Of a DNA stretch of 64,000 nucleotides, positions 46,798 through 58,152 are shown one piece after another; the first letter of the stretch is position 1, and the number at the start of each line of letters is the position of its first letter. This DNA is from a virus. The position numbers and the translations under genes are program-made. The notes beneath the pieces were generated by a model, which was not told where the DNA came from, ran no database searches, and was given only the letters and a program-made list of their open reading frames with translations. Location of the stretch: the IMG/VR virus record IMGVR_UViG_3300025789_000020, one strand, 5' to 3'.

Positions 46798-47050
46798 AGT
46801 GTTCGCTCCTATTTGCTGTTTGTATGTGTATATTATACTGCGGTTTGGGCTGGGCGTCAACCAGTTTTGCCAGTTCTTCAAGGGTAGTAACAAAATGAAA
46901 ACGCCGGGTGTTATTGTAACATTGTTCATAGCCTTGAACGCTGAATTCATACTTGAACAAACGAATGATGTAGTCGTCACCAATGTCCTCGGCAGAGAGC
47001 AAAGGGTAGTCGTACTCTTTGCCAAAATATGTGATAATAACTGTTTTCAT
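46781..47050 (-). CDS. Hypothetical early protein
   Basis: Own promoter and AGGAG; 3' end reads through the next promoter cassette. Confidence 0.6.
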   Translation of the reverse strand: MKTVIITYFGKEYDYPLLSAEDIGDDYIIRLFKYEFSVQGYEQCYNNTRRFHFVTTLEELAKLVDAQPKPQYNIHIQTANRSEHYEQRI

Positions 47051-47247
47051 TTTGGACTCCTGCTTTGTCTTGCTATGTCATTATTATAACTGAATCTAGC
47101 CAAACTGTCAATAACCCTAGAGGATGAAAGGGTATTATTGGTATGCCCAGCGATGCCGTCCATCCCGTCGCCTTCGAATCATAATTATAAGGCATTTTGG
47201 GGATCTAGTCAAGAGAAAAGGTGTTGCGTCGCCACAACACCTTTGAA

Positions 47248-47324
47248 TGGTGGGCCCACCTGGACTCGAACCAGGGACCAAAGGATTATGAGTCCTCTGC
47301 TCTAACCAACTGAGCTATAGGCCC
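47248..47324 (-). tRNA. tRNA with CAT anticodon, most like tRNA-Ile2 (lysidine); Met not excluded
   Basis: GGGCCTA TAGCTCAGTTGGTTAGAGC...CTCATAA...GGTTCGAGTCC...TGGGCCC ACCA; 77 nt with encoded CCA. Confidence 0.93.
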
Positions 47325-47500
47325 TGATATCGCCTTACTTCTTTAAGGTCATCATCCGTGTCTTCCAGTATGTAAACCTCATCGCAGAACTCTCGTTCAA
47401 CTTCTGCGATCTCTTCTGCTTCTTTTAGGGTAGGAACGCACTCGATCAGCTCTTCATGCTGATCGGTGATCCCCCATACTTCGTACTGGATAAACGGCAT
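47315..47500 (-). CDS. Small acidic hypothetical protein
   Basis: Clean ORF; stop lies inside tRNA 5' end. Confidence 0.6.
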   Translation of the reverse strand: MPFIQYEVWGITDQHEELIECVPTLKEAEEIAEVEREFCDEVYILEDTDDDLKEVRRYQGL

Positions 47501-47503
47501 AGC

Positions 47504-47857
47504 TTAGAAAGGAGCGTTTTCGTCCTCAGTTACAGCAACCTTTGCAGTTGCCTTAGCCTTAGGTGCTGTGGCCTTAACAGCTTTAGCAGGAGCCTTTGCT
47601 GTAGTCTTAGGAGCCTTCTCGTCCAAGTACTCTGCAATCGCTGACTGAGCACTTGCATCAGCAAACTCAGGCCATGTAGCGATAGTCTTAACAGCATCGT
47701 ATTTGGTCATTGCTGAATCCAGCTGTACCAAACGAGTGTCTTCGTGACCGTGCTTCTCAAGAACCTTGACACGCATTGTATCATTGGCAAAGCGAACTTT
47801 GTACTCGCCAGCGAGTTTAGATACACCAACAACTGTAAACAATTTATCTGTAGCCAT
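47504..47857 (-). CDS. Hypothetical protein with Lys/Ala-rich tail (possible DNA binder)
   Basis: KAPKTTAKAPAKAVKATAPKAKA; GAGGT RBS, own promoter. Confidence 0.7.
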   Translation of the reverse strand: MATDKLFTVVGVSKLAGEYKVRFANDTMRVKVLEKHGHEDTRLVQLDSAMTKYDAVKTIATWPEFADASAQSAIAEYLDEKAPKTTAKAPAKAVKATAPKAKATAKVAVTEDENAPF

Positions 47858-47955
47858 TTTAAAATACCTCTTCTGTGTGTGTTAAAAATATGCATTAGAG
47901 CCAATCTCTTCTGCATGTCCTAATTATACAACTATTATGGTTAGTTGTCAACCAT

Positions 47956-48207
47956 TTACTTCTTCTTTTGGCGAACCAAAGTTTGTGGCTTTTTCACAAC
48001 AGTTCCGAACTCTTTCTCAGTGTAGAATTTAATTAGAGTTCGCTGAATCATTGTAACCAAATCCCCGTGATCTTCGTCAACTACGAATCGAAACGGGCAT
48101 TGCCCCCAGGATCCGGTTTGAACGAAGTTATGGTAGTGTAACCTATGGGTTTTGTTACTGGGATCAAATACAACCCAAGGCCTACCAAATAGGTTCAGCT
48201 TACTCAT
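47956..48207 (-). CDS. Hypothetical protein
   Basis: RPWVVFDPSNK.HR...W..CP.RF. Confidence 0.7.
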   Translation of the reverse strand: MSKLNLFGRPWVVFDPSNKTHRLHYHNFVQTGSWGQCPFRFVVDEDHGDLVTMIQRTLIKFYTEKEFGTVVKKPQTLVRQKKK

Positions 48208-48331
48208 GCGCCTTTACCCATTGTCTAATTACTGCTTCTAGGGCTGTGAAATCATACTCGGACTGTTTAGGGCGCACTCGATCAGTCTGCTTCTGATCGT
48301 GCTCAGTGTTTAGTTCTTTATTCGTTTTCAT
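48200..48331 (-). CDS. 43-aa microprotein (not in ORF track)
   Basis: MKTNKELNTEH...YDFTALEAVIRQWVKAHE fills gap and overlaps both neighbours. Confidence 0.45.
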   Translation of the reverse strand: MKTNKELNTEHDQKQTDRVRPKQSEYDFTALEAVIRQWVKAHE

Positions 48332-48896
48332 TTTCTTCTTCTTCGTAGTTAGCAATCGTTTCTGAAATTCCAAACATCTCGTCTAGGACCTCTGGGATAG
48401 CGTCTTTGACTGTTTCACTAGTCAGTCCGCCGATGTCATAGCAGTCATCGCCATTCTCGTCAAAGATGCCAGCAAAGGCCATGCCGGGCTCGTAGTAGTA
48501 GAGCCTGACTGTGAACCCTTGGTCCATCAAATACTCCATAGCACCTGTAGGTGGACTCCATGCTGAGTCAAATCCAAAGGTAATGTGATCCACATCCCCT
48601 TCTAGTTCAATAGTTTCAATGGCATTGACATCCCATTTGGTGCCCCATTCATTCACACACCAGTCGTACCAATTGGCATAACCATAGGTGCTGAGATTGT
48701 GCATGGTCTGCTCTTGCAGTTTGATCTGCTCAGGGTCTGCGTCATCACCAACTCGCCCTGCTACAATCTGTAGGGCTTCTGGCACTGGCTTGCAGTAGTT
48801 CAAGAACTTGCCTTCATTAACCGCCGCAACTAACTCACGAATCTTGGCAGGGTCGCTGTGACCAATCTCTACTGTGTTATTGCACCAATTTGGCAT
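48318..48896 (-). CDS. DUF1281/YubB ferredoxin-like family protein
   Basis: MPNWCNN, WYDWC...WGTKWD, FDSAWSPP, YYEPG. Confidence 0.8.
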   Translation of the reverse strand: MPNWCNNTVEIGHSDPAKIRELVAAVNEGKFLNYCKPVPEALQIVAGRVGDDADPEQIKLQEQTMHNLSTYGYANWYDWCVNEWGTKWDVNAIETIELEGDVDHITFGFDSAWSPPTGAMEYLMDQGFTVRLYYYEPGMAFAGIFDENGDDCYDIGGLTSETVKDAIPEVLDEMFGISETIANYEEEENENE

Positions 48897-48897
48897 A

Positions 48898-49164
48898 TTA
48901 AACTCCCATTTCGCTAAAGGTTACTGAAGGATCAATGCTGAGCAATTCCTCAGCACAACGAGTAAGATTACGCATCTTTGCACGAACCACTGACGCAGGC
49001 AGTTCGCCATCGCAGGTCAAGTTCTCTGGGCTCATTTCGCTGTCAATGCCATCAGCAATGGCTTGGCGATCTGCACCGTTTAACAGGCTCAAAGGCTTTT
49101 GGTTGAATACGGCACGCCACTTGTTCTTGTTTTCTACATACTGCTCTAATGTTGCTATGTTCAT
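48898..49164 (-). CDS. Hypothetical early protein
   Basis: SPENLTCDGE motif; own promoter. Confidence 0.7.
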   Translation of the reverse strand: MNIATLEQYVENKNKWRAVFNQKPLSLLNGADRQAIADGIDSEMSPENLTCDGELPASVVRAKMRNLTRCAEELLSIDPSVTFSEMGV

Positions 49165-49199
49165 CTCTGCTCCTTTTGTGTCTGTAAGTAAGTATTATA

Positions 49200-49436
49200 C
49201 TAGAGTTTCCGGATCCTGTCAATAACCCTATTTGCTTCAGGGTAATTACTTTCCAACGTCATTTTGCACTCAATTTTGAGGGCCAAAGCCTGTTCGCGTA
49301 GTTCGAGAGCAAATTGGTTTAGAAGCTCTTGGGCATACTCAATGTCATCAGCTTCTACCTTGCTTTCCCAATCCTTAATCACATCAGGACTGGCGTTGAG
49401 CAAGAACTCTAAGTTGCTACGATCATGTTCATTCAT
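49200..49436 (-). CDS. Hypothetical protein
   Basis: DRSNLEFLL...W...DDIEYA.EL. Confidence 0.65.
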   Translation of the reverse strand: MNEHDRSNLEFLLNASPDVIKDWESKVEADDIEYAQELLNQFALELREQALALKIECKMTLESNYPEANRVIDRIRKL

Positions 49437-49572
49437 AGTCGCGTCCTTTGTGCTTGGGCTTACGCTTGTAGGCCAACTTGTTCTCTACCCGTTTAGGCTT
49501 AAATGGTGTATCCTTGCAGAACAGGACAATGTGTGCCCTAACCTGCTTTGGAACTTTAATTACAATCTTCAT
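49429..49572 (-). CDS. 47-aa basic microprotein, ArfA-like (not in ORF track)
   Basis: MKIVIKVPKQVRAHIVLFCKDTPFKPKRVENKLAYKRKPKHKGRDYE; own promoter and AAGGAG. Confidence 0.6.
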   Translation of the reverse strand: MKIVIKVPKQVRAHIVLFCKDTPFKPKRVENKLAYKRKPKHKGRDYE

Positions 49573-49620
49573 CTCGCTCTCCTTACTATAGTTCTATTAT
49601 AGCAGGGCTAGCCCAAAGTG

Positions 49621-49839
49621 TCAAGCGCCGTTATAGGGGCTGTAGATCTCGTTCTGTGGCTCTTCTACAACATCTTCTTCAGATGTAACACCGTTGGATT
49701 CGATCCAATCGTAGACCATGCTCAAAGGAATCTCTAGTTGGACAGCGATTGATTTAGGCTTATAGCCCTCAATGTATAGCTGTTCAATGTCGTAGGCTAC
49801 ATCACTCATAGAGTATCGTTCAGTCGTCATATGCTTCAT
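49621..49839 (-). CDS. Small HTH-like protein
   Basis: IEQLYIEGY....IAVQLEIP.SMVYDW. Confidence 0.6.
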   Translation of the reverse strand: MKHMTTERYSMSDVAYDIEQLYIEGYKPKSIAVQLEIPLSMVYDWIESNGVTSEEDVVEEPQNEIYSPYNGA

Positions 49840-50035
49840 CTCCTAGTTCTGTTACTTCTTCGGTTAAGACACCCAGATCAACGATGCGGGCTGTTTGATC
49901 TTCGTTGCTCACACCCTGGAACGCTGTGCGGAATGATTGGAACTCGGCAAGGAAGTCATAGACTTCTTCACGACCCCAATCCTCTGGGACTTCAAGTTCC
50001 TGAACAATCAATGTTTCAACTTTGACTTTTTTCAT
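49820..50035 (-). CDS. Small acidic hypothetical protein
   Basis: Own promoter, AGGAGCGCAA RBS. Confidence 0.65.
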   Translation of the reverse strand: MKKVKVETLIVQELEVPEDWGREEVYDFLAEFQSFRTAFQGVSNEDQTARIVDLGVLTEEVTELGDEAYDD

Positions 50036-50068
50036 GTTGCGCTCCTTTGTTGCTAAGTGTTAATTATA

Positions 50069-50272
50069 CTACTCTTCTTCAGAGTCGTCAACTTCGGGCA
50101 GGTAGTGTCTCATGGCTGTTTCGTTGCAATAAACCAACAGTTCTTCAATCGCTGAGAGGTCACCGTCATTCACATCCTTAACGATCTGCTCTAAGACTTG
50201 ATCGCGTAGTTCAATCCACTCTGTATCGAGCTTGTCAAGGGCCGAAGCCCTCTTTGATTCAAAACCTGTCAT
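50069..50272 (-). CDS. Small acidic hypothetical protein
   Basis: ATGA-coupled to upstream gene. Confidence 0.65.
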   Translation of the reverse strand: MTGFESKRASALDKLDTEWIELRDQVLEQIVKDVNDGDLSAIEELLVYCNETAMRHYLPEVDDSEEE

Positions 50273-50757
50273 GCTACTTCGTCTTTCTTAAACTTCTTAA
50301 GGGCTGTTTCCAAACGCTTCCAACGACCGTTTTCGCGTGTACGATAGTACCAGTTGCCTGTTTCCAAGTCTTCATCGTACTTGAACAGATAGAAGTACTC
50401 GCACCAGCTGCCGTCATAGTGTGCTACTGCCTCTTTGGCTGACTCAAAACGCTTATAGTCTGCACCCGTCTCGCCTCGGTCACGCTTGTAAAAGGTACAC
50501 ATATCGCCGTAGAGCTCGTCCCATTCAGCGTCTGTCATCTTAGTATCTATGCGACTAAAGGGATGCTCTGACCCAATCTCTGGACGCAGGCTAGACAAGT
50601 CACCAAATGCAATCAGGTTGTTGACCTTAGGGCTTGCTGTGTAATGCTTGTTGAGGATAGAGCCATTGTGCTCCAAATAACCATCCCAGTGGCAGTAGAT
50701 AGCCTTAACCACTTTGGTATTTGGATTTTCAATAGCAATCATTGATCGTGTACCCAT
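50269..50757 (-). CDS. Phage hypothetical protein (MGTRS...YCHWDGY type)
   Basis: MGTRS.IA, IYCHWDGY, GDLSSL, EYFYL; own promoter and RBS. Confidence 0.8.
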   Translation of the reverse strand: MGTRSMIAIENPNTKVVKAIYCHWDGYLEHNGSILNKHYTASPKVNNLIAFGDLSSLRPEIGSEHPFSRIDTKMTDAEWDELYGDMCTFYKRDRGETGADYKRFESAKEAVAHYDGSWCEYFYLFKYDEDLETGNWYYRTRENGRWKRLETALKKFKKDEVA

Positions 50758-50819
50758 TTTTCGCTCCTAGTGTGTTTGTGTAAGTCTTAATTATACAGGC
50801 TTTTGGCTAGGCTGTCAAC

Positions 50820-51020
50820 CTATTGGCAAAAGATTTCTTTAGACAGGATCTTGTCCTCTACGAGCTTGTTAGACAAGTTAAGAGCCATCATTGCCACAGT
50901 CATTGCCACTGTACGCTCTGCACCCGACATAGAGTTGACGTAGGCAAACAAGTCTTCTAGGCTGTCTGGAGTTGCAAAGAATCCGCTACGGGGAATTGGG
51001 TTGTTTACGATATCATACAT
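50820..51020 (-). CDS. Small hypothetical protein
   Basis: Own promoter and RBS. Confidence 0.7.
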   Translation of the reverse strand: MYDIVNNPIPRSGFFATPDSLEDLFAYVNSMSGAERTVAMTVAMMALNLSNKLVEDKILSKEIFCQ

Positions 51021-51077
51021 AAGTTTCGCTCCTTTTGTGTGTTGATGTTAGTATTATACTAGATCCATGGTGGCCTG

Positions 51078-51302
51078 TCAACCAAATGCTTTATATAACC
51101 CTATAGCGCATATGGTGATTGACACGCAATTTGTTAGGGTTTGGGGCCAGTTGCGCACTCGCAGGCTCCATACCATGTACAGCGTCCCCCCACAGAATCC
51201 TGCTAGGATGCTGTAGCTGTTATAAGCAGGGAAGAAGCTCATTATAGTGTACATGCATAGGAAGCAGGCAGTGCCTGCCCACTGCACTAGGCTGTTAAAC
51301 AT
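51078..51302 (-). CDS. Small membrane protein
   Basis: Three hydrophobic segments; GGAG RBS. Confidence 0.65.
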   Translation of the reverse strand: MFNSLVQWAGTACFLCMYTIMSFFPAYNSYSILAGFCGGTLYMVWSLRVRNWPQTLTNCVSITICAIGLYKAFG

Positions 51303-51637
51303 ACTTCTCCAAATTTAGCTTCCCAGCTAGCAATAAAGCCGCCTGTAACGTCTAAGCTAACATAATTGTCGCCCTGCATACCCTGTTCGCTGTAGTCTAC
51401 GTCTGTGTTTAAATTATGCTCTGCTAGGAATGTACGCAAGTCTTCTATAAATGCGCTGTCTGTGTAAATAAGTCCGTCTGTGTTAACGTCCCAAGTACTA
51501 GTGTTAAAGTACACGCACAGCTCGCCAAAATCTTTGTCGTCTGCTACATAGCCTAGTTGCATGTCTACAATCTCTACTGCTTTAGCTGTAGTAGACCAGT
51601 AGCCGTCTCCGCTAGTGTTAAATGTTACTGTTTGCAT
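51287..51637 (-). CDS. Acidic hypothetical early protein
   Basis: GDGYWS, GLIYTD, YSEQGMQG; own promoter and RBS. Confidence 0.75.
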   Translation of the reverse strand: MQTVTFNTSGDGYWSTTAKAVEIVDMQLGYVADDKDFGELCVYFNTSTWDVNTDGLIYTDSAFIEDLRTFLAEHNLNTDVDYSEQGMQGDNYVSLDVTGGFIASWEAKFGEVCLTA

Positions 51638-51723
51638 AGTTTTCGCTCCTATTGCTGTTTAAAAATTAATTATAACATAGAGAGCACGTAAAGTCAAAGA
51701 CCCTACGCACTCTAGTGTTGTTT

Positions 51724-51987
51724 TTATTCCACAAATTCTACACTGTTTGTGCGTATTGTTTTGTAGACATTAGGTAATACTTTAGCTAACTCTACAGACA
51801 AATTTTCTGCAAGTAAGTCCCCGCTAACATATGCACATTTAGATTGTGTAGGGAAGTTATATTTTATTACTTCTGTATTACCTACTTTTTTAATTGTTTT
51901 GTGTGCATTAAATGCGACAACTAGTTTGTAGGACTGTAGTTTTTTATTAAAAACTAGTTTAGCTTTAGCGACGCAGTTTGTTAACAT
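51724..51987 (-). CDS. Basic hypothetical early protein
   Basis: Own promoter and AGGAG RBS. Confidence 0.7.
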   Translation of the reverse strand: MLTNCVAKAKLVFNKKLQSYKLVVAFNAHKTIKKVGNTEVIKYNFPTQSKCAYVSGDLLAENLSVELAKVLPNVYKTIRTNSVEFVE

Positions 51988-52043
51988 ATAGGCTCCTGTT
52001 TGTGTATGTGTTTATTATACTGCATTTTGGCTAGCCTGTCAAC

Positions 52044-52527
52044 AACCCTACGCCGCATAGGGTTATGCCATGAATTAGATTGGACTTACGACTCAGGGTC
52101 ACTTGGCCTGAGCTGCCTTAAACTGTTACAGTGAAATGCACTGGAGCTTCCCTTTGTCCAAAGTCTCTGATCGCTCGACACATGAGACTCCACTTCTTGG
52201 CATCTTTTGGAATGGTGTAACTAACAGAACGTCTCCATTAGCCATTTACCGCCGGCGCTACCGTGCTATCCTCACCAAGTTTTGGGCAATGCCTTTCACT
52301 CTAACAGTTAGGAAAAGGCTAAAGGAACCATTGTAGATCTATCTCTACCACAGGGCAACGTCTGCCACTGGGCCTCTACGGTCATTACTGCCTACATACT
52401 CCGCCGCTTCTCCAACACGTCTTAGGTGCCTGTTTCATGCCCCATCCTCAAGCGTATCCGTCGATACTGTCCTCTATCTGGGCGCCTAACGGTGTAGGTA
52501 ACCTTTAACTCTTTCCTAACTGTCTAT
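52044..52527 (-). ncRNA. Candidate large structured non-coding RNA (~480 nt)
   Basis: Consensus promoter with no RBS/ORF behind it; ~22-bp long-range helix 52502-52523/52304-52325 and many nested stems. Confidence 0.7.
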
Positions 52528-52574
52528 GTGCTTATTATAGCACATAGACCTAACCCTGTCAATAACCCTTCAAT

Positions 52575-52781
52575 TTAGTCTGCTAATACAGGCCCTAAAG
52601 ATTCAGGTAATGCAATGCCTAGGATCTCGCAGACACCTTCATAGTTGCATTGGGCTTCTGTCCCGATCCACTCTATGTCTTCTGCTTCTAGGGTCTCAAA
52701 GCCAGCTCCGCGTTCTGCACGGAAATCTAGGACTTCGTTAGCTAGTTCTATGACATGCTTGATTCTGTTATACTTTGCCAT
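52575..52781 (-). CDS. Small hypothetical protein
   Basis: Own promoter and AGGAGCGAA RBS. Confidence 0.7.
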   Translation of the reverse strand: MAKYNRIKHVIELANEVLDFRAERGAGFETLEAEDIEWIGTEAQCNYEGVCEILGIALPESLGPVLAD

Positions 52782-52847
52782 TTTTCGCTCCTTCTTTGTG
52801 TGTCTATGTGCTTATTATAGCACATAGACCTAACTCTGTCAATACCC

Positions 52848-52940
52848 CTATGCTTTGAAAGGAGTCTCTTTTGGCGCACCCGGTACATTACATGTCTCTA
52901 CGCCTTTAAAGTGCCATTTTCTGCAATGTGTACATTCCAT
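52848..52940 (-). CDS. 30-aa Cys/His microprotein (not in ORF track)
   Basis: MECTHCRKWHFKGVETCNVPGAPKETPFKA behind its own promoter and AGGAG. Confidence 0.6.
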   Translation of the reverse strand: MECTHCRKWHFKGVETCNVPGAPKETPFKA

Positions 52941-52985
52941 CTTCTGCTCCTTTGTTGCTAAGTGTTAATTATACTACCTAATCGC

Positions 52986-53216
52986 TTAGGCGTCAACCGG
53001 TGCAAACAAGGCCTGCATATCTTTCATAAAGCGTCTGTAGGCCACCTTCTGGATCGTAGGTAGCTCGTCTAGTGCTACCCTGTCACCCATCTCCATTACC
53101 GCTTCTAGTACACCAGGATGACCGTTGACCCTTTTGTAGGCTTCTACGATCTCAATGGCTTCTGTAATGTCCATTTGGTAGATGTTACCGTTGTTCATTG
53201 TAGTGATAGTTCTCAA
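52986..53216 (-). CDS. Small hypothetical protein (TTG start)
   Basis: AGGAGCGAA directly upstream of TTG. Confidence 0.65.
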   Translation of the reverse strand: MRTITTMNNGNIYQMDITEAIEIVEAYKRVNGHPGVLEAVMEMGDRVALDELPTIQKVAYRRFMKDMQALFAPVDA

Positions 53217-53260
53217 GTTTCGCTCCTTTAGTTAACTGTCTATGTGTCTATTATACTGCC

Positions 53261-53944
53261 TTATGCTACCTCTGTCAAGCGGATTACGAATCCACTGTAG
53301 TCTTTCTTAGCACGACCCTTGGCCTTCAATCCTAGCATAATGCCCTTAGGGTCCAAAAAGCGCAAGTCAGTTTCGTCTGCACTCGGAACACCCTCTGGGA
53401 TCTTGTCGTAGACAGCAACCACGCTCATGCCCTGCATTAATGCTTCTGCAACATCAGCATCGTTACCGTCTGCCTTAGAAAATGTAAGGTGATAGTTAGG
53501 CAGATGCGCAACCTTGCGTCCTAAGACCTTAGTGTAGTCATAGAACTGTACTGTAGGGAACTTCTCAATGATGCCCCATTTTTCTACAGATAAGTCACTA
53601 GTACCATTCAAACGGAACACGGGTGTCAAGCCTTGCTTTTCAGCGAACTTGATAGCCTTGCGGATGTCTGCTTCTAATGTAGCAAGGAACAGATCTCTTT
53701 GCTCAAAGTACATCTTTGTCTTGCGGATACGAGCCTGCTGAATCATGTTAGTATTCTCGCCCCGTTTGAACATACCACCACGCCCGGCAGTGTTAAGGCA
53801 AGCGGCAATGCAACCCGGTGTAGCCTTAGGGCAAGTGTTCTTGCCGCTCAGTGTACTAGGTGCAAGGTGTAAGATGAAGCTAAGATAGCCCATCTTAGTG
53901 CCCTTTTGGATCTTAGGGTTGGCAGTACTTAATAGTTTAAACAT
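53261..53944 (-). CDS. Gene product 88 (GP88)-like protein
   Basis: CPKATPGCIAACL..AGRG, RLNGTSD, QFYDYTK, NYHLTFS, DLRFLD. Confidence 0.75.
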   Translation of the reverse strand: MFKLLSTANPKIQKGTKMGYLSFILHLAPSTLSGKNTCPKATPGCIAACLNTAGRGGMFKRGENTNMIQQARIRKTKMYFEQRDLFLATLEADIRKAIKFAEKQGLTPVFRLNGTSDLSVEKWGIIEKFPTVQFYDYTKVLGRKVAHLPNYHLTFSKADGNDADVAEALMQGMSVVAVYDKIPEGVPSADETDLRFLDPKGIMLGLKAKGRAKKDYSGFVIRLTEVA

Positions 53945-54006
53945 GGTTCGCTCCTTGTTAATATGTCATAATTATAACACGATCTTGTGAGGCTGTCAAT
54001 AACCCT

Positions 54007-54327
54007 TCAAAGATACTGGTCATTCAGTTCAGGTTGTATCTGCTTGACCAGCTCACGCTCGTAGGCATAGGCTTCAGCACGACCGCGTATGACGTCTAAG
54101 ACAGTATGAGTCCATCCGTCCCAGTTCCCACTCTTAATATAGCGATAGAGCTCCCAGTCCCTGTCTTCGTGTCTAGCTCTGCTTATATGCTTACGCCACC
54201 GTTCTTTGACAGCCTTTGTGACTGTAGTAGATCCCTTGCGAGTAAGCCCTATGTAGGCTAGTCCATTGTGAAATGCACAATAGATAACGAAATTAGAATC
54301 TTTACGAGCAGTTCTTTTTGTCTTCAT
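54007..54327 (-). CDS. GIY-YIG nuclease family protein
   Basis: VIY......AYIGLT...RW.KH...E..L...LN; likely leaderless start MKTKR. Confidence 0.8.
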   Translation of the reverse strand: MKTKRTARKDSNFVIYCAFHNGLAYIGLTRKGSTTVTKAVKERWRKHISRARHEDRDWELYRYIKSGNWDGWTHTVLDVIRGRAEAYAYERELVKQIQPELNDQYL

Positions 54328-54396
54328 GTTAGTATTATAGCGCACCCTGCTCAAAACGTCAAGTGGCTAAAAGAACACGACCATTCTGTAGGGGTG

Positions 54397-54425
54397 TTGA
54401 CGAACTAGCCAAAAGGCACTATAAT
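54397..54425 (+). promoter_or_regulatory. Divergent sigma70-type promoter with no obvious ORF downstream
   Basis: TTGACG-N17-TATAAT. Confidence 0.7.
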
Positions 54426-54604
54426 TAGACTATCGAACAGAGGGGGGTGGACGTCACCGCTGTCTCACCGATTCTAAGTTGGTAAGCGCCAACTAACTGT
54501 GGCGAAAAAACAACACTGTGGCAGAAATACAACAAAGACCTGGTTGACAGCAGGGTTAATAACATTTGATTTGACTTTTGGATTCTAGAATAAAATGCCA
54601 AAAT

Positions 54605-54630
54605 AAAACCTGCTGAACCAAGCAGGTTTT
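54605..54630. terminator. Bidirectional intrinsic terminator
   Basis: AAAACCTGCT-GAACCA-AGCAGGTTTT. Confidence 0.75.
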
Positions 54631-54664
54631 AGCAGGACTTTTCCGGCCCTTAAAAGACTATTAA

Positions 54665-54877
54665 TTACTCATCTTCCTCGGGAAAACTAACCTTATAGTG
54701 TGTAGAGGGCATTAATTCAAGAATATAATCACATGCATCATCTTGATTATCAAACACGGCAAAGTCACAACAACGATCACTATGCTTGAATACTCGTATA
54801 TGATGATCCTCAGTTACTGTTATATGTACAGCATGAGTAGCGAACTGTATAAAACTCTTACTAGCCTGCATGGTCAT
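54665..54877 (-). CDS. Small hypothetical protein
   Basis: AGGAG RBS. Confidence 0.55.
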   Translation of the reverse strand: MTMQASKSFIQFATHAVHITVTEDHHIRVFKHSDRCCDFAVFDNQDDACDYILELMPSTHYKVSFPEEDE

Positions 54878-55240
54878 CTCCTAATGAGTATATAGTATAT
54901 ATCGGTTTACTAGTCTTTACAAGTGTTTAGGCAGACTTCTCACCGTACAGTCGAGTAGAGAGTCTTCTAGAATGTGGAAAAGTGTGATCTAGATCATGAC
55001 CCCTAGCGTAGTGATCAATCTAAGCAAGGTGTCAAGCTAAAAATGTCTAGAAAAGTGTGGAAAAGTGCAATAAAGTGTGGCAGATTCTTGATCGTAAGCC
55101 ACTATCAAGGTTGACACTTTGAGCATACGGTAGTAAGAATTTGGCGGCTCGTGGGCGAGAGGGGCATAGTTTAAATGGTTACTCGCAATTCTCCGCCAAA
55201 AGCCCTCAATCTAGATATCCCCCAGCATGTATAGACCTTC

Positions 55241-55474
55241 TACAGCGGGGCCTATCCTACATGCATAGTGTGCGCACGTGACCGTACAGCGGGGCCTAGT
55301 GTAGATCTAGCGAGTATACTCAAACGTCTTGCACTGTGCATCTATAGACTCTATACTCGAGCTATACAGTAAGTAATAAGGTTCCGCCCATTATGTTTAC
55401 TCGTGTGTAAGTCTAGCTTCCATTAGGGATACAAGCAGTTCTTATACATGTGCTATACACCTACAGCGGGGCCT
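55241..55474 (+). repeat. 13-bp direct repeat TACAGCGGGGCCT x3
   Basis: Copies at 55241, 55285, 55462 in a non-coding tract. Confidence 0.9.
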
Positions 55475-55559
55475 TGCTATACATACTGTAATAGTATATA
55501 GATCGCTACCCATAATGTCGTTGCTACTACTAGTGCTAAGGCTATATGTAGTGTGTTCA

Positions 55560-55748
55560 TTATTGATTCCATCCATATACTCGCTCATGTGCTAGTATAG
55601 CGAGTTTAATAGTGACTAGTTCATCTATGAGTGCGTAGTATGCGTTTAGATCACTAGCCAGCTTGTAGGTAATATATAGACGACTATACAGATCTATACG
55701 TGCTTGTATAGCCAATATGTTCGTATGATAACGTTGTCGCATGCTCAT
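55560..55748 (-). CDS. Small hypothetical protein
   Basis: ORF only; weak support. Confidence 0.35.
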   Translation of the reverse strand: MSMRQRYHTNILAIQARIDLYSRLYITYKLASDLNAYYALIDELVTIKLAILAHERVYGWNQ

Positions 55749-55865
55749 ACAAGTATATATGAGTTTGACTACTATAAAGCGTTATGGATACACCAAATGA
55801 TTGCGGCTTCTAGTGTGCCCAATATTAATAGCAATGAGTAGACTACCATGTGAAGTCTAGCGTTC

Positions 55866-56138
55866 TTACTCATTAGGAGTGTGTTGACTGCCAGCTTCTA
55901 TGCTAGTCAGACCGTTATATCCAGGTAGAGTAGTAATACCTGTTTCACACCATTCTATACTGCCTACCCAATCTGTATGACCCGCAGTACCTAATCGGTT
56001 ATGCTCGTCTGCGTATGATTCAGCTAGCCGTTGTGCGTAACCTGCATCAGTAATTGGTGCGTTTTCAGTGGTTAGATCAATCTTCTTTTGTCTATGTCCT
56101 TGACTGCTGGTTGCTATAATTGCGTATCCTTGTGGCAT
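55866..56138 (-). CDS. Hypothetical protein
   Basis: TAAATA box and AAGGA RBS upstream. Confidence 0.6.
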   Translation of the reverse strand: MPQGYAIIATSSQGHRQKKIDLTTENAPITDAGYAQRLAESYADEHNRLGTAGHTDWVGSIEWCETGITTLPGYNGLTSIEAGSQHTPNE

Positions 56139-56167
56139 ATTGTGTCCTTGGTTATATGTATATTTAA

Positions 56168-56395
56168 CTAGAATGGATTGCGATTATAGGTTTCTGCAAT
56201 GTCACGAGTTTCACAGTAGTAATCAAGTCCTTTTAGATAGTTGAGCACGTTGCAGTCACTGCCTGTTCCAGTACTTAGTGCGTGATCACCTATACCCTTG
56301 CCTGTAAAGGCGGTTGTGGCTGTACTTGCTAGAGTATAAGCGCATGAGCTGAATAATAATGGGGTGATCAGGGCAATAATGAGTCTTGTGTGCAT
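56168..56395 (-). CDS. Putative small lipoprotein
   Basis: Likely start MHTRLII; lipobox-like FSSC; own promoter. Confidence 0.6.
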   Translation of the reverse strand: MHTRLIIALITPLLFSSCAYTLASTATTAFTGKGIGDHALSTGTGSDCNVLNYLKGLDYYCETRDIAETYNRNPF

Positions 56396-56497
56396 ACTAC
56401 GATTATACACTGTTTGTAGCCCAGAGTCAAGTCCGGCGGGCTTGCGAATGGCGTGACGCAACTAGCTAAAAATTTTTGCCGCTACCGCTTTGCGGAC

Positions 56498-56701
56498 TTA
56501 GGAATTTATGTGGGGGTGGTAACGGGCCAGAAATGCATCTAATCTGCAGGAGTAAACGTGTCCTGTTGCCTTGTTCTTGTACTCTACCCAAAGGTCATTT
56601 TCACTGTCCGGAAACCATGTTTTGAGTTCGTGGAATATGGTGCCGTTGGGTGCTGAGTATTCTTTGGCTAGGTTTTGAACCATTTGTTGTTCTTCTGTCA
56701 T
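56498..56701 (-). CDS. Small hypothetical protein
   Basis: Overlap-coupled; YSCRL.AF..R. Confidence 0.6.
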   Translation of the reverse strand: MTEEQQMVQNLAKEYSAPNGTIFHELKTWFPDSENDLWVEYKNKATGHVYSCRLDAFLARYHPHINS

Positions 56702-56919
56702 AAGTATTGTCCTGGATTACTTTGCCCTAATTCATCTAGCTTTTCCCATACGAATTTTAGTAGTCCTTTACCCGTTTCGGTATCGGCACTCATTAGGAGC
56801 GTTACTCTACTCAGTAGAACTCCTGCTATATTGTGGGGTTCAAAGTCATCGTAATTCATAATCACTTGATCTAGGTCATTGACCAGCTGTTCTAGTCGGG
56901 CGTCGTTTTCGTCTATCAT
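56698..56919 (-). CDS. Small hypothetical protein
   Basis: Likely start MIDEND just after a -10 box. Confidence 0.55.
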   Translation of the reverse strand: MIDENDARLEQLVNDLDQVIMNYDDFEPHNIAGVLLSRVTLLMSADTETGKGLLKFVWEKLDELGQSNPGQYL

Positions 56920-56978
56920 ATGTGTAATTATACAGGAAATAAGTCGTGGGGTCAAGATCTTGAATAAATATTTTCCTT

Positions 56979-57569
56979 ATGTGGTATACTCAACTATCTT
57001 TATCCTATGACCCGCAACAGCTACAACGGGCTGTGAATCTCCTACTGGTGCGCCTAAACACCAACTGGAACTATATACAGACTAAGCACGTGCCTGAACA
57101 GTACGAAAAGACACGTGACCTAGTGGGTATTAATCTAACACACCCTCTGGATGTAGATGCAGATAAACGCATATGGGGACTTAACGCACCCATGGACTGG
57201 ATCAAGGTCAATAGGGGCTATGGTGAAGAGCATTATACTGAGTTTCTATCCGAAGCCAAGGGCACATACCTTGAAGGTGTGGTTAACGATCTACGTGCGC
57301 TCAGCCCCCAGGGTCAAGCTCGTATACAGCTCAGCTGGCTACCCGTGGGTGTAGAGACCTTTTGGGGGCGCAGTGACATCACAGGACATGGTCGTGTACA
57401 CATACCCATATATGCCCCCAAGGATGCTTATATCCTGGGCCCTGATCAAAAGGCCTATCATTGGCCCGCAGATGGGCAGGTATATCAATTTAGCAGTCGC
57501 CAGGATCACAAGATGGTCAATGCTGACACTGAACCGCAACTACATCTAATAGCCTACTTGGCTGACTAA
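56979..57569 (+). CDS. Asp/Asn beta-hydroxylase-like (2OG-Fe(II) fold) protein, possibly degenerate
   Basis: RVHIPI, HWPADG.VY, HKMVN...HLI; expected HxD reads RSD. Confidence 0.65.
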   Translation: MWYTQLSLSYDPQQLQRAVNLLLVRLNTNWNYIQTKHVPEQYEKTRDLVGINLTHPLDVDADKRIWGLNAPMDWIKVNRGYGEEHYTEFLSEAKGTYLEGVVNDLRALSPQGQARIQLSWLPVGVETFWGRSDITGHGRVHIPIYAPKDAYILGPDQKAYHWPADGQVYQFSSRQDHKMVNADTEPQLHLIAYLAD

Positions 57570-57573
57570 CAAC

Positions 57574-58152
57574 ATGCTACATTCATACCCAGTAACCATA
57601 AGAGATTTATCCGCAGTCAGCACATGGCTAGAACAGCAGGTCGCACCCCCTGATGTACGTAGGGGCTATGTGGGTCGTATACCCATGTTGAATCAATGGG
57701 CCATACTAGAACGTCTGGGTGTGGACATGAGTGTGAATAAAAACTTCAATGTGCTACAAGCATGGTTCCCCAGTCTAGACCCTATAGAGATACACTCGGA
57801 CAGCAGTCCATTTAGCGGGCATGTACAGCGCAGTCTAATCATACCCATTAAGAACTGTGGGCAGTTGACATGGTCATGGTATAAGTGTACAGATGAGTCA
57901 AAGATGTTTCAACAGGATGCCAAGGGTCAATATAATACTGTACCCATGCTACCCTTTGATGCCGCTGAAGTCATAGAGACCAGGCTGTGTGATCAACCCT
58001 TTGTAGCCGACATAGGCACATGGCATAGTCTATGTAATGCCAGCGCAGAGCCAGCACAATTGATCAGCATACGTATACTACCGTGGGCCACTCACAGCTG
58101 GGATCAAGAGCCCACCCTACCCCCTCTGGGTTCTAGTGTGATATCATTCTAA
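57574..58152 (+). CDS. Cupin / 2OG-Fe(II)-like protein
   Basis: IHSD...LIIPI...WHSLCN...ISIR. Confidence 0.6.
   Translation: MLHSYPVTIRDLSAVSTWLEQQVAPPDVRRGYVGRIPMLNQWAILERLGVDMSVNKNFNVLQAWFPSLDPIEIHSDSSPFSGHVQRSLIIPIKNCGQLTWSWYKCTDESKMFQQDAKGQYNTVPMLPFDAAEVIETRLCDQPFVADIGTWHSLCNASAEPAQLISIRILPWATHSWDQEPTLPPLGSSVISF

What the first reader, a model, noticed from the sequence alone, without database searches (positions are those of the whole stretch)
52044..52527. ~480-nt ornate non-coding RNA expressed from its own consensus promoter
Seen: a consensus TTGACA-N17-TATAAT promoter (52534-52562, minus) is followed by no RBS and no credible ORF for ~480 nt, in a block that is otherwise tightly packed with genes. 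The 5' end (ACAGUUAGGAAAGAGUUAAAGG) pairs with CCUUUAGCCUUUUCCUAACUGU ~200 nt downstream, enclosing nested stems (CCUACA/UGUAGG, UUAGGCGCC/GGCACCUAA, GUAUC/GAUAC). The 3' half has AAUGG/CCAUU, CUUGGU/GCCAAG, AGUCUC/GAGACU, UUGGAC/GUCCAA, CAGUG/CACUG and CUCAGG/CCUGAG. UCAGAGACUU...AAGUCCA also resembles the group I ribozyme P7 elements (AGAGACUA/UAGUCC) with a compensatory change, yet no interrupted exon is evident. I see no RNase P or tmRNA signature. Inference: a large phage ncRNA (comparable in kind to GOLLD/ROOL-class RNAs) or a free-standing group-I-derived ribozyme.
Basis: partly seen in the sequence, partly recalled or inferred. Interest (0 to 1): 0.8.

Follow-up and report, generated by a model that had tools for sequence, protein, structure and literature searches.

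The report
New folded RNA of lake phages
The first 220 bases behind this perfect promoter are a real gene for a tightly folded, non-coding RNA that occurs once per genome in uncultured giant freshwater phages, often inside their tRNA gene clusters. It matches no catalogued RNA family and its job is unknown, and the remaining 260 bases of the reported stretch are not part of it.

Summary
Partly confirmed. The consensus promoter, the lack of an ORF and the long 5'/3' closing helix are real. Only the 5' part, window 52523..52304 (minus strand, 220 nt), is a conserved structured RNA. It matches a covariance model built from 57 non-redundant relatives at 204 bits. Of 61 modelled pairs, 53 show compensatory changes (89% paired, against 73% when shuffled and 36-46% when slid). 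It folds better than all 200 shuffles (z -3.65). I also find a loop-loop contact between the P5 loop (L5) and the P8 loop (L8), and the two loops change together.

The 3' 260 nt has no homologue in about 190 related loci and folds no better than chance (z -0.98). It contains one P8-like hairpin and a small terminal hairpin module shared with about 9 loci. No group I, GOLLD, ROOL, RNase P, tmRNA or SRP match appears in Rfam 15.

The family is absent from 185,579 prokaryote species genomes (motif scan) and from deposited phage genomes (blastn). Five near-complete ~350-kb phage genomes each hold one copy, in three of them 3-6 nt ahead of a tRNA.

This scan found the same family earlier on other genomes. 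Function is not shown. Most likely it is a stable trans-acting RNA cut out of early or tRNA-operon transcripts.

The parts
52534..52562 (-). Sigma-70 consensus promoter of the RNA: -35 TTGACA at 52562..52557, 17-nt spacer, TG-extended -10 TATAAT at 52539..52534. The inferred transcription start is about 52528..52526.
   Evidence: 12 of 12 matches, TG before the -10; coordinates. In about 36 of 86 related contexts a promoter of this type ends exactly where the RNA match starts. The start site is inferred from spacing, not measured.
52522..52549 (-). 10-bp inverted repeat GTCTATGTGC / GCACATAGAC flanking the -10 box. In transcripts read through from upstream it would form a hairpin directly 5' of P1.
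   Evidence: A spurious mir-355 hit marks the hairpin. Relatives carry GTTCATGTGC / GCACATGAAC, with two positions changed on both arms. Its function is not tested.
52304..52523 (-). The conserved structured RNA (220 nt).
- P1: 52523..52502 with 52325..52304.
- P2: 52498..52493 with 52396..52391.
- P3: 52492..52488 with 52405..52401.
- P4-P5 arm: 52484..52439.
- P6 hairpin: 52430..52412.
- Junction CAGUAAUGA: 52390..52382.
- P7: 52383..52375 with 52337..52326.
- P8 hairpin: 52374..52347.
   Evidence: Covariance model R2 matches window 52299..52525 at 204 bits, E 2.7e-59. Covariation is shown. Fold z is -3.65. Conserved G-U pairs (for example UG in 87 of 87 sequences at columns 39/275 and GU in 83 at 302/438) fix the minus strand as the RNA strand.
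52459..52462 (-). L5, the GACG tetraloop of P5. Proposed partner of L8 in a loop-loop contact.
   Evidence: L5 GACG or GCCG goes with L8 GACGK. L5 GGCA always goes with L8 AGAUGCG. L5 GAUG goes with L8 AGACAGA.
52357..52363 (-). L8, the 7-nt P8 loop AGACGUU: GACGU closed by an A-U pair.
   Evidence: Of 66 such hairpins in 1.84 Mb of related loci, 65 are the P8 of this RNA.
52066..52303 (-). 3' tail of the transcription unit. It is not conserved, has no credible ORF and folds no better than chance.
   Evidence: There is no nhmmer or tblastn match in about 190 loci. Fold z is -0.98. A local alignment to the RNA itself is not significant, with 140 of 500 shuffles scoring as high.
52218..52244 (-). 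Extra P8-like hairpin: an 11-bp stem with an A-U-closed GACGU loop, starting about 60 nt downstream of the RNA.
   Evidence: Local match to model positions 144-175 at 8.2 bits. It is the only hairpin of this kind outside the RNA family in 1.84 Mb.
52072..52119 (-). Small terminal hairpin module AGGCAG-CUCAGG...CCUGAG-UCGUAAGUCCAAUCUAAUU, which closes the unit.
   Evidence: The same module, with covarying inner stems, follows the RNA or its companion tRNA-Asp in L025, L003, L067, L020, L064, L096, L120 and L105.
52014..52064 (-). Hairpin AACCCUAUGCGGCGUAGGGUU (52064..52044) followed by the next 12/12 consensus promoter (52042..52014), which drives the 87-aa ORF at 51987..51724.

Best explanation
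Window 52523..52304 (minus strand) is the gene for a stable, compactly folded, non-coding RNA of a new family carried by uncultured large freshwater myoviruses.

Shown:
- It has its own consensus sigma-70 promoter.
- Its ends are sealed by a 22-bp helix, P1.
- Two multi-helix arms rise from a highly conserved junction: P2-P3-P4-P5, and P7-P8.
- The tips of the arms (L5 GACG, L8 AGACGUU) are complementary and change together.

Inferred:
- The RNA is made early and released from longer transcripts. The 5' end comes from its own start site or from cleavage at the helix base. In relatives, the 3' end comes from RNase P cutting the tRNA that starts 3-6 nt downstream.
- It folds into a fork whose arms are clamped by the L5-L8 contact.
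- It acts in trans by presenting its invariant junction (GGUUACC, UAGG, CAUGAA, GUAAUGA) to a partner. That partner is most likely a host or phage factor of the tRNA or translation apparatus.

The 260-nt tail in this window is an add-on of the transcription unit, not part of the RNA.
For: - Family and structure: 112 IMG/VR stretches carry the 19-nt core motif, and the model finds 91 matches, 90 of them distinct sequences. On 57 non-redundant sequences, 61 pairs are 89.2% paired (73.1% shuffled, 36-46% slid), 53 pairs show double changes, and the covariation score is 0.424 against 0.173, reached by 0 of 500 shuffles. On 90 sequences, 91.9% are paired against 72.3% shuffled.
- Not coding: about 5 stops per frame, and the median sense-strand ORF is 22 codons.
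- Strand: conserved G-U pairs fix the RNA strand.
- Promoter: one abuts the RNA in about 36 of 86 contexts and lies 76-134 nt upstream in about 40 more.
- Copy number: one copy in each of five 342-356-kb, 95-100% complete phage records. Each record carries 27-33 tRNAs.
- Position: the RNA ends 3-6 nt before tRNA-Asp or tRNA-Ser in three of those records and directly before tRNA-Asp in L186, L168 and L064. In about 20 contexts the next promoter starts within 10 nt of P1, so the RNA is a self-contained unit.
- Loop contact.
- No protein family is consistently adjacent.
Against:
- No partner is identified.
- The L5-L8 contact rests on two nearly invariant pairs plus a few variant classes, which may be as few as 1-3 evolutionary events. 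Its third pair is complementary in only about 57% of sequences.
- The long P1 is shortened to 5-6 bp in some members, so end-sealing or RNase III processing cannot be universal.
- A cis role on the downstream tRNA or gene is not excluded.
Confidence: 0.55

Rival explanations
1. It is a cis-acting leader or sensor: an aptamer-like fork that governs processing or yield of what follows it on the same transcript (a tRNA in the giant phages, the tail and next cassette here).
For: It is the first element after the promoter in many tRNA operons and abuts a tRNA by 3-6 nt. A P1-closed junction with clamped arm tips and invariant junction bases is typical of ligand-binding aptamers (the comparison is my own knowledge).
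Against: In about 20 contexts the RNA is followed at once by a new promoter, so nothing downstream depends on it. P1 is 20+ bp in most members, too stable to switch. What lies downstream varies: tRNA-Asp, tRNA-Ser, a promoter, an RBS, or odd modules. No terminator or RBS-sequestering alternative was seen.
Confidence: 0.12
2. It is a self-assembling RNA: L5 of one molecule pairs with L8 of another, building dimers or larger closed assemblies as shown for ROOL, GOLLD and raiA.
For: The loops are complementary and co-vary. The genomic context (phage, next to tRNAs) is that described for GOLLD and ROOL (PMC5737381). RNA-only multimers of such RNAs are reported in bioRxiv 10.1101/2024.12.08.627333 (listed). 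This window carries an extra L8-type hairpin, and L174 carries two tandem copies with different loops.
Against: A 2-3-bp contact is weak for an intermolecular link. The sequence data cannot distinguish an intramolecular from an intermolecular contact. The RNA is three to four times smaller than ROOL or GOLLD and has no homology to them.
Confidence: 0.1
3. It is a ribozyme, either self-processing or acting on tRNA precursors.
For: It has invariant unpaired nucleotides in multi-helix junctions and a clamped tertiary fold. It sits inside tRNA clusters, where processing takes place.
Against: There is no match to any ribozyme family in Rfam 15, including RNase P types and group I/II introns, even at E<=10. 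The P4-type RNase P signatures are absent: the AGGAAAG in P1 is variable among relatives. No conserved cleavage-site context was seen.
Confidence: 0.1
4. One reading: one ~480-nt ornate RNA, possibly a free-standing group-I-derived ribozyme.
For: No terminator separates the two halves, so a ~480-nt primary transcript ending near the hairpin module (52119..52072) is plausible. The tail holds a P8-like hairpin.
Against: The 3' half has no homologue and folds at chance level. There is no group I hit. Relatives end the RNA at P1.
Confidence: 0.03
5. It is not an RNA gene: a small protein gene or a DNA-level signal.
For: None beyond its intergenic location.
Against: All frames have multiple stops and no ORF is conserved. 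Substitutions preserve base pairing, including strand-specific G-U pairs.
Confidence: 0.02

Closest known systems
Phage T4 rnaC and rnaD (species 1 and 2 small stable RNAs in the T4 tRNA cluster)
   Same: Both are phage-encoded, non-coding, stable-looking RNAs of unknown function. Both sit inside or at the head of a phage tRNA gene cluster and are presumably released by the tRNA-processing machinery (T4 annotation; tRNA adjacency).
   Different: There is no homology: the T4 rnaC/rnaD region scores no better than noise with model R2 (<=5 bits). The T4 RNAs are 119-139 nt, and rnaC ends in a tRNA-like T arm. This RNA is 200-245 nt with a different architecture, and in this window it is a free-standing promoter cassette 5 kb from the nearest tRNA.
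GOLLD (RF01998) and ROOL (RF03087) RNAs
   Same: All are complex-folded RNAs of unknown function found in phages or prophages and often next to tRNA genes (PMC5737381). All have peripheral hairpins of variable length and many covarying helices.
   Different: No Rfam match to either family at gathering score or at E<=10. This RNA is about 220 nt, against about 580 and 800 nt. It was found only in uncultured freshwater phage contigs, never in cellular genomes.
Fork-shaped junction RNAs clamped by a loop-loop contact (purine riboswitch L2-L3; tRNA D-loop/T-loop elbow; SRP Alu domain loops). Comparison from my own knowledge.
   Same: Two arms leave a conserved junction closed by P1, and their terminal loops pair through 2-3 Watson-Crick pairs that co-vary.
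   Different: The arms are much longer, and one contains a second three-way junction. No sequence or model similarity to those families. No expression platform. The invariant GUAAU segment only resembles the SRP Alu UGUAAU turn and was not testable.
phi29 pRNA (packaging RNA). Comparison from my own knowledge.
   Same: Both are early phage RNAs with a long 5'/3' helix, a central junction and two loops whose complementarity is preserved by covariation.
   Different: No Rfam pRNA match. The host phages are large myoviruses with an ordinary large terminase, not phi29-like podoviruses. Whether the loop contact is intermolecular is unknown.

Membership tests
The ~200-nt folded RNA of giant lake phages (uncatalogued; defined here by model R2) | Full-length match to the covariance model built from 57 non-redundant members | tested here: met
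   Window 52299..52525 (minus), 204 bits, E 2.7e-59, model positions 1-225 of 225. It is the only copy in the window.
The ~200-nt folded RNA of giant lake phages (uncatalogued; defined here by model R2) | Invariant junction motifs GGUUACC, UAGG, CAUGAA and GUAAUGA, and helices P1-P8 | tested here: met
   All are present at the coordinates. The invariant columns are listed.
The ~200-nt folded RNA of giant lake phages (uncatalogued; defined here by model R2) | Sigma-70-type promoter upstream, on the strand of the neighbouring early genes | tested here: met
   (every clustered neighbour that is a plausible gene lies on the same strand).
Group I intron (RF00028) | Match to the P3-P9 catalytic core model, with flanking exons | tested here: not met
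   No hit at the gathering score or at E<=10 over 51900..52700. No interrupted gene is present. The supposed P7 segment lies in the non-conserved tail.
GOLLD (RF01998) / ROOL (RF03087) | Match to the family covariance model | tested here: not met
   No hit in the window or in 16 relatives.
RNase P RNA (all Rfam types) | P4 pseudoknot with conserved regions CR-I and CR-V, and a model match | tested here: not met
   No Rfam hit. The AGGAAAG in P1 is not conserved among relatives.
tmRNA / tRNA | tRNA-like domain detected by ARAGORN or Rfam | tested here: not met
   Between 43 and 58 kb ARAGORN finds only tRNA-Met at 47248..47324. Rfam finds only that tRNA.
T4 rnaC / rnaD | Sequence and structure similarity to the T4 RNAs | tested here: not met
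   Model R2 run with filters off over the T4 tRNA region gives only noise.
Y RNA / YrlA with Ro60 | Rfam match, with a TROVE-domain protein (and often RtcB) encoded in the same genome | tested here: not met
   No Rfam hit. No TROVE or RtcB in any of five near-complete carrier genomes.
Candidate structured RNAs of the IMG/VR catalogue (Fremin et al. 2023, PMC10690425) | Listed among the 8,495 IMG/VR candidates | not testable with these tools
   The supplementary tables are not held. The main text does not describe a motif of this kind.

The most novel reading that the evidence does not exclude
The RNA is an oversized elbow RNA. Its two arms are clamped by a D-loop/T-loop-like contact, and it is embedded once per genome in the phage's tRNA cluster. 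It either (a) works as a decoy or sensor for host machinery that recognises tRNA shape, such as anticodon-nuclease defences, RNase P or modification enzymes, or (b) links L5 to L8 between molecules to build an RNA-only assembly like ROOL or GOLLD. Under either version, the extra L8-type hairpin in this window would be a built-in competitor or cap.
Probability: 0.15. Interest if true: 0.85.

Novelty: new variant of a known kind. Interest (0 to 1): 0.6.

Why it matters
Complex-folded RNAs with invariant junction nucleotides are rare in bacteria and phages, and those characterised so far have mostly turned out to be ribozymes, riboswitches or RNP cores. This one is a single-copy, deeply conserved gene of a whole lineage of ~350-kb freshwater phages. 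It sits where the phage invests in its own translation apparatus (27-33 tRNAs), and it is absent from cellular genomes and from every deposited phage genome searched.

At 220 nt, with a consensus E. coli-type promoter, it is small enough for chemical probing, crystallography or cryo-EM, and for expression in E. coli. That makes the open question of what tRNA-associated phage RNAs (T4 rnaC/rnaD, GOLLD, ROOL) do more tractable.

For annotation, it shows that about 220 nt of 'empty' early-region DNA in these phages is a gene.

Tried and rejected
- Rfam 15 at gathering score on the whole window and on 16 relatives, and at E<=10 on 51900..52700: only tRNA plus chance-level hits to eukaryotic families.
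- blastn against 50,697 deposited phage genomes, with the window region and with the best family member at E<=10: only chance fragments.
- A gapped core motif against 185,579 prokaryote species genomes: no match.
- Homologues of the 3' half by nhmmer, six-frame tblastn and two IMG/VR pattern scans: none.
- The tail as a decayed second copy of the RNA: the covariance model finds only the P8-like hairpin, and the pairwise alignment is not significant.
- A conserved neighbouring protein as partner: the commonest neighbour is a 74-91-aa membrane protein present in 35 of 86 contexts at varying positions and on either side. The 68-aa ORF upstream in this window is a singleton.
- Ro60/RtcB partnership: absent.
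- Homology to T4 rnaC/rnaD: none.
- The 15-nt tail motif GTAAGYCCAATCTAA as a family marker: most of its 112 IMG/VR matches lack the hairpin and look like chance.
- The IMG/VR catalogue of candidate structured RNAs could not be checked, because no supplements are held.

Full report
**What is in the sequence.** On the minus strand a perfect TTGACA-N17-TATAAT promoter lies at 52562..52534. It is one of eleven perfect ones on that strand between 47 and 58 kb. The next ORF with a ribosome-binding site starts at 51987, behind a second perfect promoter at 52042..52014. Between the two promoters no minus-strand ORF of 30 codons or more begins before 52245, and none has an RBS. The window belongs to a large myovirus-like phage with tail sheath, large terminase and helicases. 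No whole genome is held for it, and no deposited phage genome is close to it.

**The conserved unit is 220 nt, not 480.** Proteins flanking the region led to 83 related IMG/VR loci. In those loci, blastn and nhmmer matched only window 52535..52295, over its full length, in 26 distinct loci. The segment 52305..52040 matched nothing. It still matched nothing after the locus set grew to about 190, either as DNA or as six-frame peptides.

- A 19-nt core motif occurs in 112 IMG/VR stretches.
- I aligned 57 representatives, none more than 92% identical to another, and built covariance models R1 and R2.
- R2 finds 91 matches in 90 sources and exactly one in the window, at 52299..52525, 204 bits.
- The 5' domain alone folds at z -3.65, with none of 200 shuffles as good. 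The tail folds at z -0.98 and the whole 484 nt at z -1.72.

**Structure.**
- P1 pairs the two ends. In this window it is 22 nt on each side (52523..52502 with 52325..52304).
- From a junction with the invariant GGUUACC, one arm runs P2 (CCUACA/UGUAGG), then P3 (CCGUU/GGCGG), then a second three-way junction (AGG, CAUGAAACA, GGAGAAGC). That junction bears the P4-P5 arm and the variable P6 hairpin, which is capped by GNRA or UUCG loops in relatives.
- The other arm, after the invariant CAGUAAUGA, is P7 (GACC-GUAGA with UCUAC-AAU-GGUU) topped by the P8 hairpin.
- On the MAFFT alignment, 61 pairs are 89.2% paired, against 73.1% after shuffling and 36-46% when the partner is slid. Fifty-three pairs show changes on both sides. 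The covariation score is 0.424 against 0.173, and none of 500 shuffles reaches it.
- On the model-based alignment of 90 sequences the figures are 91.9% against 72.3%. That alignment leans towards the model.
- Conserved G-U pairs fix the strand.
- All three sense frames carry about five stops, and the median sense ORF is 22 codons.
- Two arms exist in alternative versions that are mixed among members, so the family evolves by module swapping.

**A loop-loop contact.** L5 is usually GACG or GCCG. L8 is a 7-nt loop, AGACGKU, whose first and last bases pair. In one register, L5 positions 4, 3 and 2 face L8 positions 4, 5 and 6.
- All six or seven sequences with L5 GGCA have L8 AGAUGCG, turning G-C into A-U and A-U into G-C. 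No other sequence has that L8.
- The single sequence with L5 GAUG has L8 AGACAGA, turning C-G into U-A.
- L5 GCCG goes with GACGG in 15 sequences and with GACGU in 8.
- Written as a pseudoknot, this helix is 79.8% paired.
- On a tree built without the loop columns, the GGCA/AGAUGCG sequences form three small groups in an unresolved part of the tree, so the number of independent events is between one and three.
- The contact is therefore supported but not proven, and sequence alone cannot say whether it forms within one molecule or between molecules.

**Context.**
- A promoter of the same type ends exactly at the RNA in about 36 of 86 contexts. In about 40 more it lies 76-134 nt upstream, with a leader of small hairpins in between.
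- Downstream, about 20 contexts have the next promoter within 10 nt of P1. Others have an unusual tRNA-Asp directly attached, as in L186, L168 and L064, or small RNA-like modules.
- Five 342-356-kb records, 95-100% complete, hold exactly one copy each and 27-33 tRNAs each.
- In three of those records the RNA lies inside the tRNA cluster and ends 3-6 nt before tRNA-Asp or tRNA-Ser.
- No protein family is consistently adjacent.
- None of the five genomes encodes a TROVE (Ro60) or RtcB protein.
- The gapped core motif has no match in 185,579 prokaryote species genomes, and the family has no match among 50,697 deposited phage genomes.

**The tail in this window (52303..52066).** It has no relatives and no significant fold, but two pieces stand out.
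- 52244..52218 is an 11-bp hairpin with an A-U-closed GACGU loop, the same design as P8. Of 66 such hairpins in 1.84 Mb of related loci, 65 are the P8 of the RNA, and this is the only other one (local model hit).
- 52119..52072 is a small hairpin module ending in GUAAGUCCAAUCUAAUU. It also closes the RNA unit in about nine other loci, with covarying inner stems.
- The rest is not demonstrably a decayed copy of the RNA.
- A primary transcript of about 450-480 nt is therefore plausible, but the functional conserved RNA is its first 220 nt.

**Comparison with known families.**
- Rfam 15 gives nothing for the window or for 16 relatives. There is no hit to group I or II introns, RNase P, tmRNA, SRP, 6S, Y RNA, GOLLD, ROOL, raiA, HEARO or any riboswitch.
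- T4 rnaC and rnaD share the setting but not the sequence or fold.
- GOLLD and ROOL share the phage and tRNA context described in PMC5737381, but not homology or size.
- A 2023 catalogue of 8,495 candidate structured RNAs from IMG/VR (PMC10690425) may list this motif. Its text does not describe it, and its tables were not available.
- This scan has already reported the same family on other genomes: e1-5407049, e1-5407062, e1-5375691 and e1-5319954. My independent tests agree with those notes. They add the L5-L8 co-variation, the absence from cellular genomes, and the dissection of this window's tail.

**Mechanism.**
- Shown: a promoter-driven, single-copy, strongly covarying RNA with a conserved junction and co-varying loop tips.
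- Inferred: it is released from early or tRNA-operon transcripts, with RNase P making its 3' end where a tRNA follows. It folds into a clamped fork and acts in trans through its invariant junction on an unidentified partner (confidence about 0.55).
- Rivals: a cis-acting leader or sensor (0.12), a self-assembling multimer (0.10), a ribozyme (0.10), the original 480-nt group-I-like reading (0.03), and not an RNA at all (0.02).

Noticed in passing
window 52522-52549 (minus): A 10-bp inverted repeat (GTCTATGTGC / GCACATAGAC) brackets the -10 box of the RNA's promoter. Relatives have GTTCATGTGC / GCACATGAAC, so two positions changed on both arms. It could be a hairpin in read-through transcripts just 5' of P1, or an operator.
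   Followed up: partly
L025:1402-1476, L186:9010-9084, L168:7609-7684, L064:3761-3835, L103:7826-7900: An unusual tRNA-Asp(GTC) with an encoded CCA end follows the RNA directly in several relatives. ARAGORN finds it, but the Rfam tRNA model at gathering score did not report it in L025 or L064.
   Followed up: partly
L025:1330-1400, L003:8036-8105, L067:7410-7480 (approximate): A tRNA-like module without a D arm lies between the RNA and the next element: GUCCC...CUGAG-UUCGCAA-CUCAG...CAGG-UGAGACU-CCUG..GGGAC-GCCA. It has an acceptor-like stem, a 7-nt anticodon-like loop and an encoded CCA.
   Followed up: no
L003:8125-8240, L007:1335-1450, L027:6460-6570, L066:1650-1760 (approximate): A further conserved, non-coding-looking module of about 110 nt (CGCUGAGGGACAAGUGCG...GACCCGGGUGAGACUUCCCAAAACCCUCCCGG) recurs downstream of the RNA in several loci.
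   Followed up: no
L023, L054, L017, L005, L066, L095, L168: about 95 nt upstream of the RNA: A conserved ~95-nt leader lies between the promoter and the RNA in one subgroup (AAGGCGAUCCUCGAAUGUAAGAACCCA...GGGUUGGAACCAAGGGAUAC...CGAGUUUGUAGACUCG). A second, AT-rich subgroup instead has a hairpin AACCC-GCAA-GGGUU directly before P1.
   Followed up: no
window 47000-58000 (minus): Eleven perfect TTGACA-N17-TATAAT promoters, about one per 0.5-1 kb, each head a small ORF cassette of mostly unknown function. The promoters often carry a TAGGGTT(A/G)T extension upstream of the -35.
   Followed up: partly
window 54007-54354 (minus): A 115-aa ORF with a weak, sub-threshold GIY-YIG nuclease domain match (20.4 bits against a cut-off of 22.6). 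It is possibly a small homing-endonuclease-like gene in the early region.
   Followed up: partly
L174:74-530 (minus): Two tandem copies of the RNA with different loops: copy a has L5 GCCG and L8 GACGU, copy b has L5 UCGAGAG and L8 AAGGU. The loops of copy b are not complementary to each other.
   Followed up: partly
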